From the NCBI GenBank assembly GCA_026395995.1, contig JAPLXQ010000010.1, positions 146,400 to 210,399 on the forward strand: DNA of 64,000 bases. The letters are read 5' to 3'. The translations under genes and the position numbers were made by a program. This document shows positions 5,701 to 16,113 of the stretch, one piece after another. Numbering within the stretch: position 1 is the stretch's first letter; each line of letters opens with the position of its first letter. The DNA is from Candidatus Nomurabacteria bacterium (lineage in GTDB: Bacteria > Patescibacteriota > Minisyncoccia > Phycocordibacterales > UBA9973). The notes under the pieces are model-generated. The model searched no databases. It was not told the origin of the DNA and was given only the letters and a program-made list of their open reading frames with translations.

Positions 5701-5960
5701 GAGGACAAAGATTCGGAGAAATGGAAGTGTGGGCTCTCGAAGGATACGGTGCTGCTCATGCACTACGAGAAATGCTCACTATCAAGTCTGACGATATCGT
5801 AGGACGTTCAGCTACATTCGATTCAATCATTAAAAATGAAGTAATCAAATCACCAAACTCACCAGCCTCATTTAACGTTATGTTAAATTACTTGAGAGGA
5901 CTAGCACTCAATGTGAACTTAAAAAAATGGTCGGACAAATCTGGAGAAGATAACATTTAG
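2769..5960 (+). CDS. rpoB: DNA-directed RNA polymerase subunit beta
   Basis: 1063 aa; unmistakable RpoB blocks (GPNIGLI, NMQKQAVP, GRHGNKGV, RFGEMEVWALE). Confidence 0.97.
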   Translation: MQKSVARPKKYFSRYKKPLIEFPNLIETQVKSFKWLVENGIGEVFKEFSPINDYSGKKFQLEFTSFTLGEPKCDEYTAKLNKLSYEGLLKVRVKLTNKVLGTIKEQEIFMSEFPLMTAHGSFIINGVERVIVPQLARSFGVFFTESESKGKRFFGAKIIPARGVWIEIESEADGAIYVRIDKKRKFPATALLRVMGYHTDEEIIKAFAGNEIHEASIVASLAKDTTKVLGEAFVDIYKRLRDGDMATADNAKEFITSIFTAERYDLSPVGRFRFNDRFGKDMGDEEMKRRIISKEDLVVILKNIIDLNNTADAKADDIDHLGQRRVRFVGEMLQQKIRTGIMQIKRNIQDRMSTIDVDMAMPIQIINQRPLQARIKEFFTTNQLSQFMSQENVLAEIEHLRLLSALGPGGLTRERAGLEVRDVHPSHYGRICPIHTPEGPNIGLIVHLSIYSKINDFGIIETPYVKVKKGKITGEIQYLNALEEEKYNIAHGGVPYTEEGMISVEQVEARVKTQPGIIHRDEIDFIDVATNQGFSIATSMIPFLEHNDANRALMGSNMQKQAVPCVNPEVPLVGTGMEEYASRDSGRLVIAENDGVVKYADGKKIIITEKGDKDKVYTLVNFLRNNNFSIFHQRPNVNVGDKIKKGDVLADTTSTVDGQIAIGQNILMAFMSWNGLNYEDAIIISERLVKNSVFTSVYLEEFICTVRDTKLGPEITTRDIPNVGELKLKDLDEDGIVRVGAEVRENDILVGKITPKGETELTPEERLLRSIFAEKARDVKDTSMRMEHGKRGRIIGVKIFSREMGHSLESGIIKKIVIEVAQIRNISVGDKLSGRHGNKGVISTVLPEEDMPYMADGTPIDIILTPLGVPSRMNLGQILEIHLGMAANTLGYQAIVPPFLGAKNEEIKEELVKAGFNENGKMKLFDGRTGEAFEQDIAVGYMYMLKLHHMVEDKIHMRSIGPYSLITQQPLGGKAQGGGQRFGEMEVWALEGYGAAHALREMLTIKSDDIVGRSATFDSIIKNEVIKSPNSPASFNVMLNYLRGLALNVNLKKWSDKSGEDNI

Positions 5961-11358: not shown

Positions 11359-12606
11359 ATGAAAAAAACAAAAGTAAAAAAAGTAATAAAAAAACCAGCA
11401 AAAAAAGTTTCCAAACCTGTGAAAAAGGTGGTTAAAAAGGTTGCAAAAAAGATAGATAAAAAAACAAAAGTAGTTGTAAAAAAGGTTAAGAAAGAGGCTG
11501 TAAAAAAAGTTGCAGTCAAAAAATTAAATACAGGTGATAAAAAAGCTCAATTTTTAGATGCTAAAGCTACTGAGCTTATAGAAAAAGGACGCAAGCGTGG
11601 TTTTATTACTTATGATGAACTTTTGAAAACTTTTCCTGATATTGAAAATAACATTCTTTTCTTAGATGAGCTTTATGATAAATTTAATGTAGCCGGTATT
11701 GATGTTCTTGAAGGTGGAAATTTATTGGATCTTGATGCTTTAGAGAAAGATAAAGATTTGAATAAGTCTACAATGCATGATTCTATTCAAATGTATTTGA
11801 AAGAAATTGGTCAATACTCACTTATTTATGCTAGTGAAGAAAAAGATTTAGCGAAGAGAATTGAAAAGGGGGATGAAGAAGCAAAGAATTTACTGGCTCG
11901 TGCGAACCTTCGTCTTGTGGTTTCTATCGCTAAAAAATACGTAGGACGTAGTGCAGACCTTACTTTGCTTGATTTGATTCAAGAAGGAAATTTGGGTCTT
12001 TTTAAGGCTGTTGAAAAATTTGACTGGACTAAGGGTTATAAGTTTTCTACTTATGCGACTTGGTGGATTCGTCAATCTATCACTCGTGCTTTAGCTGATC
12101 AAAGTCGCACTATTCGTATTCCTGTGCACATGGTAGAAACAATTTCAAAATATAAACAAGTTCACCGTCGTCTTTCTCAAGACCTTGGACGTGAACCTCT
12201 TTCAGAAGAAATAGCTACAGAAATGGGGATTGATGTTGAAAAAGTTCATACAATTGAAAGTATTTCTCAAGAGACTATTTCCCTCGAGCAACCAGTCGGA
12301 GATGATGATGATAAATCAACACTCGAAAACTTCGTGGCTGATGATAAGATACTACGTCCTGATCAAGAATCTTCACGTCGTATCCTCGCTGATCAAATCA
12401 AAGAAGTTCTAGATGAACTTAATCCAAAGGAAAGAAAAATTCTTGAAATGCGTTATGGGCTGATGGATGGAATTCAGCATACTCTTGAGAGAGTAGGGGA
12501 AGAATTCGGTGTCACTCGTGAACGTATCCGTCAAATCGAAGCAAAAGTTCATGAAAAGCTACGACAGCATGAAAAAATCGCAAGACTTAAAAATTATTTT
12601 GATTAA
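11359..12606 (+). CDS. rpoD: RNA polymerase sigma-70 factor RpoD with a ~55-aa KK/AK/PV-rich, histone-H1-like N-terminal extension
   Basis: Regions 1.2-4 conserved ([35 protein letters not shown], region 4 [18 protein letters not shown]). Confidence 0.9.
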
Positions 12607-12612
12607 AACACA

Positions 12613-12691
12613 ACCCCTCCCGACCTCCCCTTATCAAGGGAGGAGGAAATGCTAAGCCTTTAATTCCCCCTGACAAGGGGGTTAGGGGGTT
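12613..12691. repeat. degenerate copy of the GC-rich compound palindromic element (intergenic, after rpoD)
   Basis: cccctcccgacctccccttatcaagggaggagg and ccccctgacaagggggttaggggg hairpins resemble the right arm of the uvrA/uvrB/uvrC copies. Confidence 0.5.
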
Positions 12692-12725
12692 GTATTATCC
12701 TTATTTTATAAGGGCTTTTTAGTGC

Positions 12726-12755
12726 TTGACAGAATGGTATTAAATATGCTATCAT
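12726..12755 (+). promoter_or_regulatory. sigma70-like promoter candidate (TTGACA, 18-nt spacer, TATCAT) upstream of the DGR target gene
   Basis: Hexamers read from the sequence, ~65 nt upstream of the ATG at 12820. Confidence 0.3.
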
Positions 12756-12819: not shown

Positions 12820-13536
12820 ATGAAAAATGAAACAAAATCTGACAGACTGAGCTTTGCACAGCTGGGTGTCCTTGCAGGAATCATTATGGAATTCCTTGCA
12901 GTAATGTTCAATGCTCCACAGCTAAAATATTGGCTTGAGCATAAAACGGAGTTAAAGAAAAGGCTTCGTGAAGTTTTTAAAATTGTAGATGAGTATGTCG
13001 ACATTCGTATAGAATGGGCTACTTTCTACAAAAAGAATTTTGACTGGGAAGTAGATTTCAGTCATGTAATAATTCCAACAATGCCGACTATTGGTAAATG
13101 GAGATTATTATTTATTCCGAAAGGAATGAGACCACAGCTTGCTTTTGAAGTTTGTACAAAGCTTTTTAAAACAAGTAAGTATTGTGATAACTTGGATGAT
13201 GCGATTGGTAAAAACATTCGTACAACAGGTGAACATTATGCTGTGTGGGTTCGTGACGAAGTTGAACCAGATTCAGAAACATTGGGCAAATCAACTCGCC
13301 AAGCGGATCCTGATATGAAAGTTGGAATCACATTGCTTGAAGGAATTATTTTTGAAATTAAGTATTTTACTGAAACCGGTAAACATCTTAATATTAAAGG
13401 AGTTACTTTTTGTAGCGGTTCTCGCATTTCTGGTGGCAATGTTCCGAGCGTGAGTTGGAGCGATGGCAAGTTCGAGGTGTACTGGAACGACTTGGACAAT
13501 TCGGTTTCGTATTATGGTATCCGTTCAGCAGTTTAA
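12820..13536 (+). CDS. DGR variable target protein (238 aa). The C-terminal ~40 aa is encoded by the VR; hydrophobic N-terminal segment; no other recognisable domain
   Basis: VR lies in-frame in the last 40 codons. C-terminus CSGSRISGGNVPSVSWSDGKFEVYWNDLDNSVSYYGIRSAV. Variable codons correspond to AAY/GAY/AAG codons in the TR. Confidence 0.8.
   Translation: MKNETKSDRLSFAQLGVLAGIIMEFLAVMFNAPQLKYWLEHKTELKKRLREVFKIVDEYVDIRIEWATFYKKNFDWEVDFSHVIIPTMPTIGKWRLLFIPKGMRPQLAFEVCTKLFKTSKYCDNLDDAIGKNIRTTGEHYAVWVRDEVEPDSETLGKSTRQADPDMKVGITLLEGIIFEIKYFTETGKHLNIKGVTFCSGSRISGGNVPSVSWSDGKFEVYWNDLDNSVSYYGIRSAV
13415..13534 (+). repeat. DGR variable repeat (VR), 120 bp
   Basis: Direct repeat of 13797-13916 with 13 mismatches, all at TR adenines. 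The 3' end (ggtatccgttcag) is conserved and may serve as the homing-initiation sequence. Confidence 0.85.
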
Positions 13537-13564
13537 TCTTTTATTTTTTTAACTTTTAACCTTA

Positions 13565-13600
13565 ATCAGTGTTTGCTATGCAAACACTGATTTTTTTATG
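13565..13600 (+). terminator. hairpin plus T7 30 nt downstream of VR (terminator and/or DGR target-recognition cruciform)
   Basis: atcagtgtttgc-tatg-caaacactgat then ttttttt. Confidence 0.5.
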
Positions 13601-13796
13601 CTAAAATATACTCGGCTGTTAAATTGATTTGGCTTCGGCTAGATAACAATTTGCCATATAAAGAAACTGCCTGCAATTAATAAAGCATAGATAATTCAGT
13701 TTTGTATTGATGCACCACATTGCTCGTTGTGAAGCGAGATAACTCAGAAAATTTGGAAACAGATTTTCGGTGAAATGGAATATTTATTGCGGTAGA

Positions 13797-13916
13797 GCGG
13801 TTCTCGCAATTCTGATGGCAATGTTCCGAACGTGAATTGGAACGATGACAAGTTCAAGGTGAACTGGAACAACTTGGACAATTCGAATTCGAATTATGGT
13901 ATCCGTTCAGAAGTTT
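13797..13916 (+). repeat. DGR template repeat (TR), 120 bp, same orientation as VR
   Basis: About 35 A residues, of which 13 differ in the VR (to G x8, T x4, C x1). In the VR reading frame the TR carries many AAC/AAT codons. Confidence 0.85.
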
Positions 13917-13917
13917 C

Positions 13918-14262
13918 TCATAACAATCCGCTCTGTTTGGGCGGATTTTGTGTTTGAGTATATTTGAGCCAGCCATTTATCATCTTTGAAATTTCTTGAA
14001 GTTTCAATTCTATTTGTAAATATATAGTTTCGGTAATTATTTTTAATTCATATTCTGTGCGGATAAGTTGTTTCAATGTTTCTGTTTGTAGCCTTGCTTG
14101 TTTAAGTAGAATAATTTTATCTACCTTTGATTCAAGTGATGCACTAATGAGCAACGAAAAACTTTTTAAAAATTCTTTTTCAATATAGTTATGTAGTCCA
14201 AGTTTGTCACGTTTCGGTAATTTATTTCCAATTAAATAAATATAAGCGTATAATTTACGCAT
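13918..14262 (-). CDS. avd: Avd-like accessory variability determinant (basic four-helix-bundle / 23S rRNA IVS protein family)
   Basis: YAYIYLIGNKLPKRDKLGLHNYIEKE fits the KFPKxxxYxL motif of this family; ~114 aa and basic. The ORF is also open back to an upstream ATG at 14322, which would overlap the RT start; the start at 14262 is preferred. Confidence 0.7.
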   Translation of the reverse strand: MRKLYAYIYLIGNKLPKRDKLGLHNYIEKEFLKSFSLLISASLESKVDKIILLKQARLQTETLKQLIRTEYELKIITETIYLQIELKLQEISKMINGWLKYTQTQNPPKQSGLL

Positions 14263-14265
14263 CTT

Positions 14266-15393
14266 ATGGACAACTGGAATATCAAAGTCGTTGGGGGGGG
14301 TGCTAATCAAAGTCTCCTTCATAATATCGTAAGTTTACCAAATTTACTGCAAGCATGGAAGGAATTTAAAAGGTGTAAAAATTCCAAAAAAGACATTGCT
14401 GAATTTGAATTTAATTTAGAAAATAATTTATTTTCCTTGTACAGTAATTTAATAAATAAAACATACATACCAGACCCATACCAAGCATTCTTTGTTTATG
14501 ATCCAAAACGACGACATATACACAAAGCTACAGTCAAAGATAGAGTTTTACATCAAGCTATTTTTAAGATTTTATATCCAATATTTGATAAGCATTTTAT
14601 TTATGATTCTTATTCATCACGCAAAGGAAAGGGAACTCATAAGGCGTCACAACAGCTTTTTATAGTATTAAGGAAAGAGAGCAAAAACTGGCGAGTGCCA
14701 GTTTTTGCTCTTAAGTGTGACATTAGAAAATTTTTTGATTCTGTAGATCACAACATTTTATTTGAGTTAATAAAAAAGAAAATAACAGATGAAGAAACTT
14801 TAACTTTAATTAAACAAATTTTAGATAGCTTTGAAGTTAAAAATAAAATGTTAACAAACTCAGCGATAGCAGAAAGTGTTAACATTTCAAGACGAGGTTT
14901 ACCTCTTGGTAATGTAACGAGCCAGCTTTTTGCAAATATCTACTTAAATGAATTAGATCAATTCGTGAAACATAACTTGAAAGTAAAAAGTTATTTTAGA
15001 TATGCAGATGATTTTGTGTTGCTTTCTAGAGATAGAAAAATTTTAGAAAACTACATATTAGAAATTCAGGATTTTTTAGATAAAAATTTAAAATTACAAT
15101 TACACCCAAATAAAATTTCAATAAGAAAAGTAACACAAGGGATTGATTTTGTGGGATATGTAATTTTACCTGATACAGTGGTATTAAGAACTAAAACAAA
15201 AAAGAGAATTTTTAAAAAGTTAAAAACTGTAAAAGACAAATTAGTTAACAAAAAATCAACTAAAGAAAACTTTAATCAAACTAAAACTTCCTATTTAGGA
15301 ATTCTTACTCATTGTAAAGATAAGGAAATTAAAAGAGGGATAAACAGAATTTTATTGCAATGCTTTATCAATTTTGCCAGTGACCATCAATAG
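14266..15393 (+). CDS. DGR reverse transcriptase
   Basis: RT motifs: PKRRHIHKATVKDRVLHQAI (1/2), ALKCDIRKFFDSVDH (3), motif 4 GLPLGNVTSQLFANIYL with the DGR-specific [ILV]GxxxSQ signature, YADDFVLL (5). The N-terminal region aligns with the Bordetella phage bRT pattern (...YDPKRR.I.KA...DRV.HQAI...IFD..FIYDSY..RKGKGTH.A). G8 homopolymer at 14293-14300. Confidence 0.9.
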   Translation: MDNWNIKVVGGGANQSLLHNIVSLPNLLQAWKEFKRCKNSKKDIAEFEFNLENNLFSLYSNLINKTYIPDPYQAFFVYDPKRRHIHKATVKDRVLHQAIFKILYPIFDKHFIYDSYSSRKGKGTHKASQQLFIVLRKESKNWRVPVFALKCDIRKFFDSVDHNILFELIKKKITDEETLTLIKQILDSFEVKNKMLTNSAIAESVNISRRGLPLGNVTSQLFANIYLNELDQFVKHNLKVKSYFRYADDFVLLSRDRKILENYILEIQDFLDKNLKLQLHPNKISIRKVTQGIDFVGYVILPDTVVLRTKTKKRIFKKLKTVKDKLVNKKSTKENFNQTKTSYLGILTHCKDKEIKRGINRILLQCFINFASDHQ

Positions 15394-16113
15394 TGGTTCA
15401 GCGCCGTCGATTGTGTCGAGGACTTTGCCGTCTTTGATGATGAACCCTTTTGGTGTGCCGTTTACTCCAGCCTTACCACCTTCTTCGGTAGAATCGACAA
15501 TGGCTTTTGAATATTTACCAGAATCTAAACATGTATTAAATATGGTTGTATCAAGACCTAAACCTTTAGCAAAAGATTTCAAGTTTTTATCTGCAAAGGC
15601 ACCTTTATTTTCACCTTGTTGATGAGTGAAGAGATAATCATGATATTCCCAGAATTTATTTTGATCACCAGCACAACGAGCTGCTTCAGCTGATTTGACT
15701 GATTCAGCTCCTAGGAAAGCAAAATCTCTTGAGATTAATGAGATTTTTCCATTCTTGATATAAGAATCATTTAAACCTTGCTCAGTCTCACTAAAGAATT
15801 TCCCACAAAATGGACACTGAAAGTCTGTGTACAAAATGACAGAAATAGGGGCATTTATGTTTCCTAGAATTCTATCAGTATTTGAGACAGGGGTGGGTGT
15901 GTCTGTCTTTTTAGCATTATTTTTTCCAGTATCTTCTACTTTAGCTACTTTGTCTGAGTTGTCACTATTACTACCACCTGTCAACCAATAAAAACCTATT
16001 AAAATAGAAGCTGAAATTAAAACTCCAGTTATGATAATAGCGACGGGTGTTGTCAATTCAAACTCTTTTTTATCACCGATTTGGACCACTTTTAAATCTT
16101 CATTATTTTCCAT
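15352..16113 (-). CDS. DsbA-family thiol:disulfide oxidoreductase, membrane-anchored
   Basis: N-terminal TM helix; thioredoxin CPFC active site (DFQCPFCGKF); DsbA-like length. The 3' end overlaps the RT 3' end by 42 bp, convergent. Confidence 0.75.
   Translation of the reverse strand: MENNEDLKVVQIGDKKEFELTTPVAIIITGVLISASILIGFYWLTGGSNSDNSDKVAKVEDTGKNNAKKTDTPTPVSNTDRILGNINAPISVILYTDFQCPFCGKFFSETEQGLNDSYIKNGKISLISRDFAFLGAESVKSAEAARCAGDQNKFWEYHDYLFTHQQGENKGAFADKNLKSFAKGLGLDTTIFNTCLDSGKYSKAIVDSTEEGGKAGVNGTPKGFIIKDGKVLDTIDGAEPLLMVTGKIDKALQ

What the first reader, a model, noticed from the sequence alone, without database searches (positions are those of the whole stretch)
12820..13536. DGR target is a small (238 aa) protein with no recognisable N-terminal domain
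DGR targets are usually large surface or receptor proteins (phage Mtd, Legionella LdtA, Treponema TvpA) or DUF1566/FGE-domain proteins. This target is short. It has a hydrophobic stretch near the N-terminus (LGVLAGIIMEFLAVMF) and a diversified C-terminus (...GGNVPSVSWSDGKFEVYWNDLDNSVSYYGIRSAV) in which Asn/Ser/Gly/Tyr/Val positions correspond to TR AAY codons. A promoter-like TTGACA-18-TATCAT lies upstream. Its function is open, for example an adhesin for host-cell attachment in an episymbiont.
Basis: inference. Interest (0 to 1): 0.5.

Follow-up and report, generated by a model that had tools for sequence, protein, structure and literature searches.

The report
Small lectin-fold DGR target protein
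This 238-residue protein of a Nomurabacteria (CPR) bacterium is a real, actively hypermutated target of a diversity-generating retroelement. It is essentially one C-type-lectin-fold binding domain behind a short helical leader, and it belongs to a class of CPR targets that is already catalogued but whose ligand is still unknown.

Summary
ORF 12820-13536 (238 aa) ends in a 121-nt variable region (VR, 13414-13534). It differs from the template repeat (TR, 13796-13916) at 13 positions, and all 13 are TR adenines. Avd and a reverse transcriptase follow.

A strain from another metagenome has an identical TR. Its target differs at 3 of 594 scaffold bases but at 19 of 121 VR bases, all at TR adenines. 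The element is therefore active.

The protein is not an oddity. Its family has about 2,000 50%-identity clusters and includes the "UVR3" CPR target class of Wu et al. 2018. Roux et al. 2021 already noted that CPR targets lack transmembrane or known domains.

There is no signal peptide, and the hydrophobic stretch is most likely not a membrane anchor. The surface-adhesin idea is therefore unsupported, though not excluded. Verdict: a new member of a known kind, ligand and location unresolved. Interest 0.3.

The parts
12726..12755 (+). Promoter-like site TTGACA-18-TATCAT with a TG extension, about 65 nt upstream of the target ATG
   Evidence: 11 of 12 consensus matches. This is a consensus match only, not evidence of function.
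12820..13536 (+). DGR target (variable protein) gene, 238 aa. It is identical to MCX6755407.1, a hypothetical protein of a Candidatus Nomurabacteria MAG.
12820..12993 (+). N-terminal helical leader, residues 1-58 (predicted helices 12-29, 32-40 and 42-52). It contains the hydrophobic stretch at residues 15-30 (12862-12909). It is a family-specific module that is replaceable or absent in relatives.
12994..13533 (+). C-type-lectin/FGE-like fold domain, residues ~59-238. This is the conserved core of the family.
13414..13534 (+). Variable region (VR), encoding residues 199-238
13564..13592 (+). Hairpin with a 13-bp stem followed by a T-run. It is the intrinsic terminator of the target gene and may also act as a DGR target-site hairpin. 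A pyrimidine-rich spacer (13537-13563) precedes it.
   Evidence: A hairpin sits at the same place after every homologue, with different stem sequences.
13593..13795 (+). Conserved non-coding leader upstream of the TR. It probably includes the TR-RNA promoter (TATGCTAAAAT at 13596-13606) and a structured 5' part of the DGR RNA.
13796..13916 (+). Template repeat (TR): 36 adenines, 11 AAY codons
   Evidence: It is 121/121 identical in L022-L024.
13925..13947 (+). Hairpin immediately 3' of the TR, with covarying stems in related DGRs. It overlaps the 3' end of avd on the other strand.
13918..14322 (-). avd accessory gene (four-helix-bundle bAvd), antisense to the target, TR and RT. Its likely true start is M21 (14262).
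   Evidence: Pfam bAvd E 3.3e-12. NCBIfam DivGenRetAVD E 9.5e-14, below the curated cutoff. Gene calls in L022.
14266..15393 (+). DGR reverse transcriptase. The translation contains LGNVTSQ and YADD. The true start may lie about 18 codons downstream.
   Evidence: RVT_1 E 3.1e-25. Translation..

Best explanation
The gene encodes a stand-alone variable protein of a CPR-type (Patescibacteria) diversity-generating retroelement.

Architecture. Residues ~59-238 fold as one C-type-lectin/FGE-like domain. The last 40 residues are encoded by the VR. They form a beta-hairpin (208-214 and 217-223) plus flanking strands. Positions 210, 212, 214, 217, 219, 221 and 223 point to one face and are freely rewritten. 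V211, W213, F218, V220 and W222 point to the other face and never change.

Mechanism. The RT and Avd copy a TR-containing RNA into cDNA, misincorporating opposite adenines. This cDNA replaces the VR. About 10^20 binding-surface variants can be made on a constant scaffold. The protein therefore acts as a reprogrammable ligand-binding module, like TvpA, Mtd or AvpA.

Inferred: the protein is not Sec-exported. The N-terminal hydrophobic helix is a conserved packing or oligomerisation helix, not a membrane anchor. The binding domain would then work in the cytoplasm, or at most at the inner face of the membrane. I put this at about 0.55, against about 0.3 for surface display. The ligand is unknown.
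For: DGR anatomy:
- The VR/TR pair has 13 of 13 mismatches at TR adenines.
- Avd and RT lie next to it.
- The same layout, target-TR-avd(minus)-RT, occurs in L008, L010 and L019. Their own VR/TR pairs are adenine-biased: 17/0, 12/0, 20/2 and 17/4.

Activity:
- L022-L024 come from other samples and are 95.8% identical across the region. Their TR is identical (121/121).
- Their target has 3 of 594 scaffold mismatches but 19 of 121 VR mismatches, all at TR adenines. Fisher p = 6e-13.
- In three other 90%-identity clusters, the alleles differ almost only in the VR.

Fold:
- The AF2 model has pLDDT 90.1 and pTM 0.77, with the VR region at 88-97.

Domain limits:
- A profile search found 1,988 clusters. 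Many are ~185-200 aa proteins that match only profile positions 56-240.

Known class:
- All nine UVR3 reference targets match the family profile at E 1e-20 to 1e-54. UVR4 and unclassified controls do not.

Localisation:
- There is no signal peptide. The best 19-residue segment scores +2.2 kcal/mol, against a family median of +7.3. Only 3 of 265 score below 0.
- L18, G20 and I22 of the helix are at least 90% conserved, and a mid-helix acidic residue is usual.
- Distant relatives have hydrophilic, charged leaders or none.
- Roux 2021 groups the CPR clade-2 target clusters as 'Cell_other' and reports no transmembrane or other conserved domain.
Against: - I had no coordinates, so exposure of the variable residues is inferred from strand periodicity and from the residues tolerated in natural alleles. 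It was not measured.
- The window protein's helix is among the most hydrophobic in the family (Kyte-Doolittle 19-residue mean 2.03). It could insert into a membrane.
- At least six relatives carry a signal peptide or a membrane helix where this leader sits: a signal peptide in P0100, lipoprotein signals in P0115 and P0157 (and a weaker one in P0140), and transmembrane helices in P0265, P0198 and P0072. This core domain can therefore work outside the cell.
- No partner gene or effector domain suggests an intracellular pathway.
Confidence: 0.85

Rival explanations
1. Surface adhesin. The N-terminal hydrophobic helix would be an uncleaved signal-anchor. The variable lectin-fold domain would be displayed outside the cell, where it binds host-cell or environmental ligands of an episymbiont.
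For: - The window helix has a Kyte-Doolittle 19-residue mean of 2.03, above the classical 1.6 threshold.
- Some divergent members lose the mid-helix acid and gain an unbroken hydrophobic run of 12-17 residues.
- P0100 has a classic signal peptide. P0115, P0157 and (more weakly) P0140 have lipoprotein-type signals. P0265 has a signal-anchor. All sit at the equivalent position, as in the lipoproteins TvpA and LdtA.
- Reviews attribute host attachment to CPR DGR targets (PMC10221324).
Against: - There is no cleavable signal peptide.
- The insertion estimate is +2.2 kcal/mol here and +7.3 at the family median.
- The flank after the helix is more positive (+4) than the N-terminal flank (+1). If the helix did insert, the domain would face the cytoplasm.
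- The helix is as conserved as the core, which is unusual for a plain anchor.
- The UVR3 references and other distant members have hydrophilic leaders.
- Exported forms make up only about 3% of the 265 sampled members.
Confidence: 0.3
2. Intracellular variable sensor used in conflict with phages or with the host. It would resemble the DGR-diversified lectin-fold sensors of STAND NTPase systems, but here the sensor is a separate small protein that signals to a partner encoded elsewhere.
For: - Most family members lack export signals.
- Intracellular DGR targets are known in cyanobacteria and multicellular bacteria (PMC7517822, PMC10907252; listed).
- Wu 2018 records P-loop NTPase-fused targets in CPR DGRs.
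Against: - No effector or NTPase domain occurs in any of the 267 members examined.
- The 16 loci share no neighbour other than RT/Avd and one housekeeping synteny block, prfB-ftsEX.
- I did not scan this protein against the PADLOC defence library.
Confidence: 0.15
3. An FGE/EgtB-like enzyme whose active-site surroundings happen to be diversified. In this reading the conserved loop VEPDxExLGKSTRQADPDM and the invariant D151, E174, H189 and C198 form a catalytic or metal site.
For: - Invariant His, Cys, Asp and Glu residues exist in the family.
Against: - No sequence match to the FGE-sulfatase Pfam family was found in any of 48 members.
- Sequence identity to those enzymes is 7-15%.
- Known DGR variable proteins share this fold without catalysis (TvpA, Mtd, AvpA; PMC5006420).
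- Hypermutation of about 21 codons fits a binding surface better than an active site.
Confidence: 0.03

Closest known systems
UVR3 class of CPR DGR target proteins (Wu et al. 2018, NAR, PMC5758913; sequences reused in Roux et al. 2021, Supplementary Data 8)
   Same: - It is the same protein family. All nine UVR3 references match the family profile at E 1e-20 to 1e-54, and BLASTP identity to the window protein is 26-43%.
- The size is the same (225-251 aa).
- The motifs are shared: EWxxFY, YAVWVRD, LCSGSR and a C-terminal G-[IL]-R.
- The VR is C-terminal, and the hosts are CPR bacteria.
   Different: - The window protein carries the LGxLAGFIVEFLA hydrophobic helix leader, whereas most UVR3 references have hydrophilic leaders.
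TvpA (Treponema denticola) and Mtd (Bordetella phage BPP-1), FGE-subclass C-type-lectin DGR variable proteins
   Same: - The VR is at the extreme C-terminus, starts near strand beta3 and ends in an invariant G-x-R strand.
- AAY-rich TR codons specify the binding face.
   Different: - There is no detectable sequence similarity (13% and 12% identity; no Pfam FGE-sulfatase hit).
- TvpA is a lipoprotein and Mtd a trimeric phage tail-fibre tip. This protein has no signal peptide and no extra domain.
AvpA (Nanoarchaeota DGR variable protein; Handa et al. 2016, PMC5006420)
   Same: - It is small (256 aa) and is a single globular C-type-lectin-fold protein.
- It has no other domain and comes from an ultra-small uncultivated organism.
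- Some of its homologues are not part of a DGR. This parallels the copies here that have no cassette nearby.
   Different: - The AvpA VR is internal, followed by 46 residues, and is about half as long.
- AvpA is not of the FGE subclass.
- No direct comparison with AvpA was made here.
LdtA (Legionella) and DUF1566/Fib_succ_major lipoprotein targets
   Different: The window protein has no lipobox or signal peptide, and no member matches the DUF1566 Pfam family.

Membership tests
DGR variable (target) protein | A VR in the ORF is paired with a nearby TR, and differences are confined to TR adenines | tested here: met
   A 121-nt repeat with 13 of 13 mismatches at adenines and 0 of 85 at other bases.
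DGR variable (target) protein | A cognate DGR reverse transcriptase and an accessory protein (Avd) are encoded nearby | tested here: met
   RVT_1 E 3.1e-25 and bAvd E 3.3e-12. DivGenRetAVD E 9.5e-14, below the curated cutoff. The RT translation contains LGNVTSQ and YADD. That [LIV]GxxxSQ marks DGR RTs comes from my own knowledge and was not checked here.
DGR variable (target) protein | Evidence that the VR is actually rewritten (population or strain variation restricted to TR-adenine positions) | tested here: met
   L022-L024: identical TR, 3/594 scaffold against 19/121 VR mismatches, all at TR adenines, p = 6e-13. VR-only alleles occur in three other clusters.
DGR variable (target) protein | Target-site elements at the 3' end of the VR (IMH and a downstream hairpin) | tested here: inconclusive
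   VR/TR homology ends at the stop codon. A 13-bp hairpin lies 28 nt downstream in this locus, and a hairpin follows every homologue. It carries a T-run and also follows copies with no DGR nearby, so it may be only a terminator. No GC-rich IMH like that of BPP-1 is evident.
C-type-lectin fold, FGE subclass (structural class of TvpA and Mtd) | Three-dimensional fold similarity to solved members | tested here: met
   [not shown]
Pfam FGE-sulfatase, DUF1566 and Lectin_C sequence families | A profile match above or near the gathering threshold | tested here: not met
   None of these families matched the window protein or any of the 48 aligned members at E <= 1.
UVR3 class of CPR DGR targets (Wu 2018) | Alignable sequence similarity to the UVR3 reference targets, including the VR | tested here: met
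   Nine of nine UVR3 references match the family profile (E 1e-20 to 1e-54). UVR4 and unclassified controls do not.
Surface lipoprotein or secreted DGR targets (TvpA/LdtA type) | An N-terminal Sec or lipoprotein signal peptide, or a transmembrane anchor | tested here: not met
   There is no lipobox or cleavable signal. The longest uncharged hydrophobic run is 9 residues. The insertion estimate is +2.2 kcal/mol. These are home-made heuristics; SignalP, TMHMM and DeepTMHMM were not available. The feature is present in about 3% of relatives.
Type IV pilin-like proteins (class III signal peptide) | A G|F-x-x-x-E prepilin cleavage/methylation motif followed by a ~20-residue hydrophobic helix | tested here: not met
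   LAG-FIVEF resembles the motif, but Glu is at +4. Only about 10 hydrophobic residues follow. No member matches the Pfam N_methyl family.

The most novel reading that the evidence does not exclude
The family of about 2,000 clusters, centred on Patescibacteria, would be a mostly cytoplasmic, effector-less, free-standing hypervariable binder: an intracellular 'antibody-like' protein. A DGR would rewrite it, sometimes from a distance. L011's VR matches this window's TR at all 84 non-adenine positions, although no cassette lies within its 14.6-kb contig. Copies would often be frozen after DGR loss, as in the series L019 (intact), L013 (decayed), L017 and L018 (none). This would answer the question left open by Roux et al. 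2021, whether CPR targets are truly not membrane-bound. It would also point to a role other than host adhesion, such as neutralising or sensing phage or host proteins inside the cell.
Probability: 0.25. Interest if true: 0.65.

Novelty: new member of a known kind. Interest (0 to 1): 0.3.

Why it matters
DGRs are enriched in CPR bacteria, yet the function of their targets is unknown. The literature explicitly leaves open whether these targets are membrane-bound (Roux 2021).

This locus is a clean, demonstrably active example of the UVR3 class. It has a confident lectin-fold model, defined domain limits, natural allele series and an identical TR in a second sample. That makes it a good candidate for expression, structure determination, localisation and ligand screening.

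It does not change the current picture of DGR biology. The size and the lack of recognisable domains are typical of CPR targets.

Tried and rejected
- Sequence search of the family profile against PDB chains found only a chance hit at E = 1.1.
- The AFDB50 library was not available.
- A homologue search with the N-terminal 63 residues alone found no candidates. I could not test whether the leader occurs on other proteins.
- Weak Pfam hits (DUF7516, DUF7486, and DASH_Dad1 in 17 of 48 members at E >= 0.0013) lie far below threshold. I treat them as chance matches to short helices.
- I considered a type IV pilin-like signal (LAG|FIVEF) and rejected it. The Glu is at the wrong position, the hydrophobic helix is too short, and there is no N_methyl match.
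- I looked for a conserved partner gene in 16 loci. Only RT/Avd and one housekeeping synteny block recur.
- Rfam has no family for the TR leader. Only sub-threshold chance hits appeared.
- The key CPR DGR paper (Paul et al. 2017, Nat Microbiol) is not held in the library. Its content is cited only through Roux 2021 and Wu 2018.
- I could not map UVR3 to a specific Roux protein cluster from the truncated supplements.
- I rejected the idea that the VR is a dead relic.

Full report
**1. What is at the coordinates**

It is identical to MCX6755407.1, a hypothetical protein from a Candidatus Nomurabacteria MAG.

Its last 121 nt (VR, 13414-13534) repeat 382 nt downstream (TR, 13796-13916). The 13 mismatches all sit at TR adenines. 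None sit at the 85 other bases.

A bAvd-type accessory gene follows on the minus strand (13918-14322; Pfam bAvd E 3.3e-12; NCBIfam DivGenRetAVD E 9.5e-14, below cutoff). A reverse transcriptase follows on the plus strand (14266-15393; RVT_1 E 3.1e-25; LGNVTSQ and YADD in the translation). This is a complete DGR.

The promoter-like TTGACA-18-TATCAT is at 12726-12755. A hairpin with a 13-bp stem and a T-run follows the gene at 13564-13592.

**2. Is the element active?**

The 90%-identity cluster of this protein holds a second allele, P0268. Its contigs (L022-L024) come from other samples and are 95.8% identical across the region. They carry a TR identical to the window's (121/121).

Their target gene differs at 3 of 594 scaffold bases but at 19 of 121 VR bases. 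All 19 are at TR adenines (Fisher p = 6e-13).

Three other clusters in the family (P0008, P0052, P0060) contain 10-15 alleles each. These differ almost only in the VR. The VR is therefore being rewritten in nature.

The TR has 36 adenines and 21 recodable codons, 11 of them AAY. That allows roughly 10^20 protein variants. Two AAG codons can mutate to TAG.

**3. What the protein is**

No Pfam or NCBIfam model matches it or 47 relatives. No PDB sequence matches either.

An AlphaFold2 model built on a 48-sequence alignment is confident: pLDDT 90.1, pTM 0.77. Helices lie at 12-29, 32-40, 42-52 and 60-74, followed by an alpha/beta domain. The VR region scores 88-97.

A profile search of 1.84 billion representatives found 1,988 clusters at E <= 1e-3. 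Many are ~185-200 aa proteins that match only profile positions 56-240. Residues ~59-238 are therefore one domain. The "unrecognisable N-terminal 190 aa" are mostly the invariant scaffold of the same lectin fold that carries the VR. Only residues 1-58 are a separate leader.

**4. Position of the variable residues**

In the predicted hairpin 208-214/217-223, the recodable positions are 210, 212, 214, 217, 219, 221 and 223. They alternate with invariant V211, W213, F218, V220 and W222.

The variable side chains must therefore share one face of the sheet, and the invariant hydrophobic ones must share the other.

Natural alleles place D, G, S, Y, F, N, R, C, L and W at the variable positions. That tolerance is incompatible with burial.

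However, I had no coordinates, so exposure is inferred and not measured.

**5. The N-terminal hydrophobic stretch and localisation**

There is no cleavable signal peptide or lipobox.

The best 19-residue segment has a Kyte-Doolittle mean of 2.03. On a position-independent Hessa-type insertion scale it scores +2.2 kcal/mol. The family median is +7.3, and only 3 of 265 members score below 0.

The helix carries a mid-helix Glu or Asp in most members. It has a G16xxxG20 pattern, and L18, G20 and I22 are at least 90% conserved. That looks more like a packing or oligomerisation helix than a plain anchor.

The flank after the helix is more basic (+4) than the N-terminal flank (+1).

The 267 sampled members divide as follows:
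- about 240 have an N-terminal extension that is not strongly hydrophobic, mostly this helical leader;
- 18 have no leader;
- distant members, including the UVR3 references, have hydrophilic or charged leaders;
- about 3% have a real signal peptide (P0100), lipoprotein signals (P0115, P0157, and more weakly P0140) or transmembrane helices (P0265, P0198, P0072).

My reading is that the window protein is probably not exported (about 0.55). Surface display is not excluded (about 0.3), because the core domain clearly works outside the cell in some relatives.

These are heuristics. Dedicated predictors were not available.

**6. Comparison with what is known**

Supplementary Data 8 of Roux et al. 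2021 contains the reference targets of Wu et al. 2018, labelled by VR class. All nine "UVR3" targets (225-251 aa, from CPR groundwater genomes) match the family profile at E 1e-20 to 1e-54. BLASTP identity to the window protein is 26-43%. UVR4 and unclassified controls do not match.

Wu et al. stated that for UVR1-6 it could not be concluded whether the VR lies in a lectin, Ig or other domain. They also said little is known about CPR target functions.

Roux et al. stated that targets of CPR clade-2 DGRs typically lack any recognisable transmembrane or conserved domain. They left open whether these are genuinely non-membrane targets, and they predicted that such VR domains would prove to be new lectin-fold variants.

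AvpA, the Nanoarchaeota target, is a solved precedent for a ~250-residue single-domain lectin-fold target.

The finding is therefore a new, well-behaved member of a catalogued class. Its smallness is typical of the class. The fold assignment made here is the expected one.

**7. Context in relatives**

Among 16 genome loci, the cassette lies next to the target in L008, L009, L010 and L019, with the same order (target, TR, avd on the minus strand, RT). A decayed remnant is present in L013. Eight other non-redundant loci show no RT, Avd or TR within the available 4-10 kb.

One synteny block (prfB-target-ftsE-ftsX) captures a loss series. L019 is intact. L013 keeps the TR plus gene fragments, with 15 adenine and 9 non-adenine mismatches. 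L017 and L018 have only 139 and 108 nt between the target and ftsE. L018 also has a TAG stop in its VR where the window's TR has AAG.

No other neighbour is conserved.

**8. Verdict**

The protein is a reprogrammable lectin-fold binding module of the UVR3 class. It is actively diversified, and its ligand and cellular location are unresolved.

It is a new member of a known kind. Interest is 0.3.

Noticed in passing
window 13593-13795 and 13925-13947; alignment A3 with L008, L009, L010, L013, L019: The ~200-nt non-coding leader between the target's terminator and the TR is conserved across related DGRs, as is a hairpin just 3' of the TR. RNAalifold predicts 98 pairs, 39 of them with compensatory changes. 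No Rfam family matches. This is probably the structured 5' and 3' context of the DGR template RNA. A conserved -10-like TATGCTAAAAT/TATACTAAA sits right after the target terminator.
   Followed up: partly
window 13918-14322 (-) versus 14266-15393 (+); same layout in L008, L010, L019, L022: avd lies antisense between the TR and the RT, so the TR's 3' flank is the antisense of the avd 3' end. The avd and RT starts are back-to-back. They overlap by 57 nt with the longest ORFs, or are ~28 nt apart with the gene calls in L022. The layout is conserved in this clade and differs from the BPP-1 order. I did not check whether it has been described.
   Followed up: partly
L011 5130-5870 (protein P0072), VR 5742-5861: This homologue comes from another Nomurabacteria MAG. 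Its DNA is only ~78% identical over the core, and its leader is replaced by two strongly hydrophobic helices. Yet its VR differs from this window's TR at 19 positions, all adenines, with 0 of 84 non-adenine mismatches. No TR, Avd or RT lies in its 14.6-kb contig. This suggests retrohoming in trans from a near-identical TR elsewhere, or very recent loss or transfer of the cassette.
   Followed up: partly
L019, L013, L017, L018 (prfB-target-ftsE-ftsX block): A DGR loss series within one synteny block: intact cassette (L019), TR plus gene fragments (L013), and no cassette (L017, L018). The L018 copy has an in-frame TAG in its VR at the position of the TR's AAG codon 219.
   Followed up: yes
window 13529 (TR 13911), codon 237; also L006, L008-L011, L013, L022: The TR encodes Glu (GAA) at codon 237. 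Every VR examined has GCA (Ala) or GTA (Val) there, never the templated A. Either the templated residue is always selected against, or this is a fixed VR/TR (IMH-type) difference.
   Followed up: no
window 13537-13563 and the equivalent position in all homologue loci: A pyrimidine-rich tract of about 20-30 nt lies between the target stop codon and the terminator hairpin. It recurs even in homologues with ~45% protein identity and in copies with no DGR nearby. Its role is unknown. It could be part of the DGR target site, or simply T-rich terminator context.
   Followed up: no
window 12606-12700: GC-rich nested hairpins (CCCCTCC...GGAGGAGG and CCCCCTGACAAGGGGG) lie between rpoD (11359-12606) and the target promoter, in otherwise AT-rich DNA. 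They are probably the rpoD terminator. They give only sub-threshold Rfam hits (PhotoRC-II 27.5 bits, RsaF 24.8 bits).
   Followed up: no
window 15352-16113 (-): A membrane-anchored DsbA/thioredoxin-like gene converges on the RT, and the two ORFs overlap by 42 nt. It is not conserved next to other family members, so the proximity is probably coincidental.
   Followed up: partly
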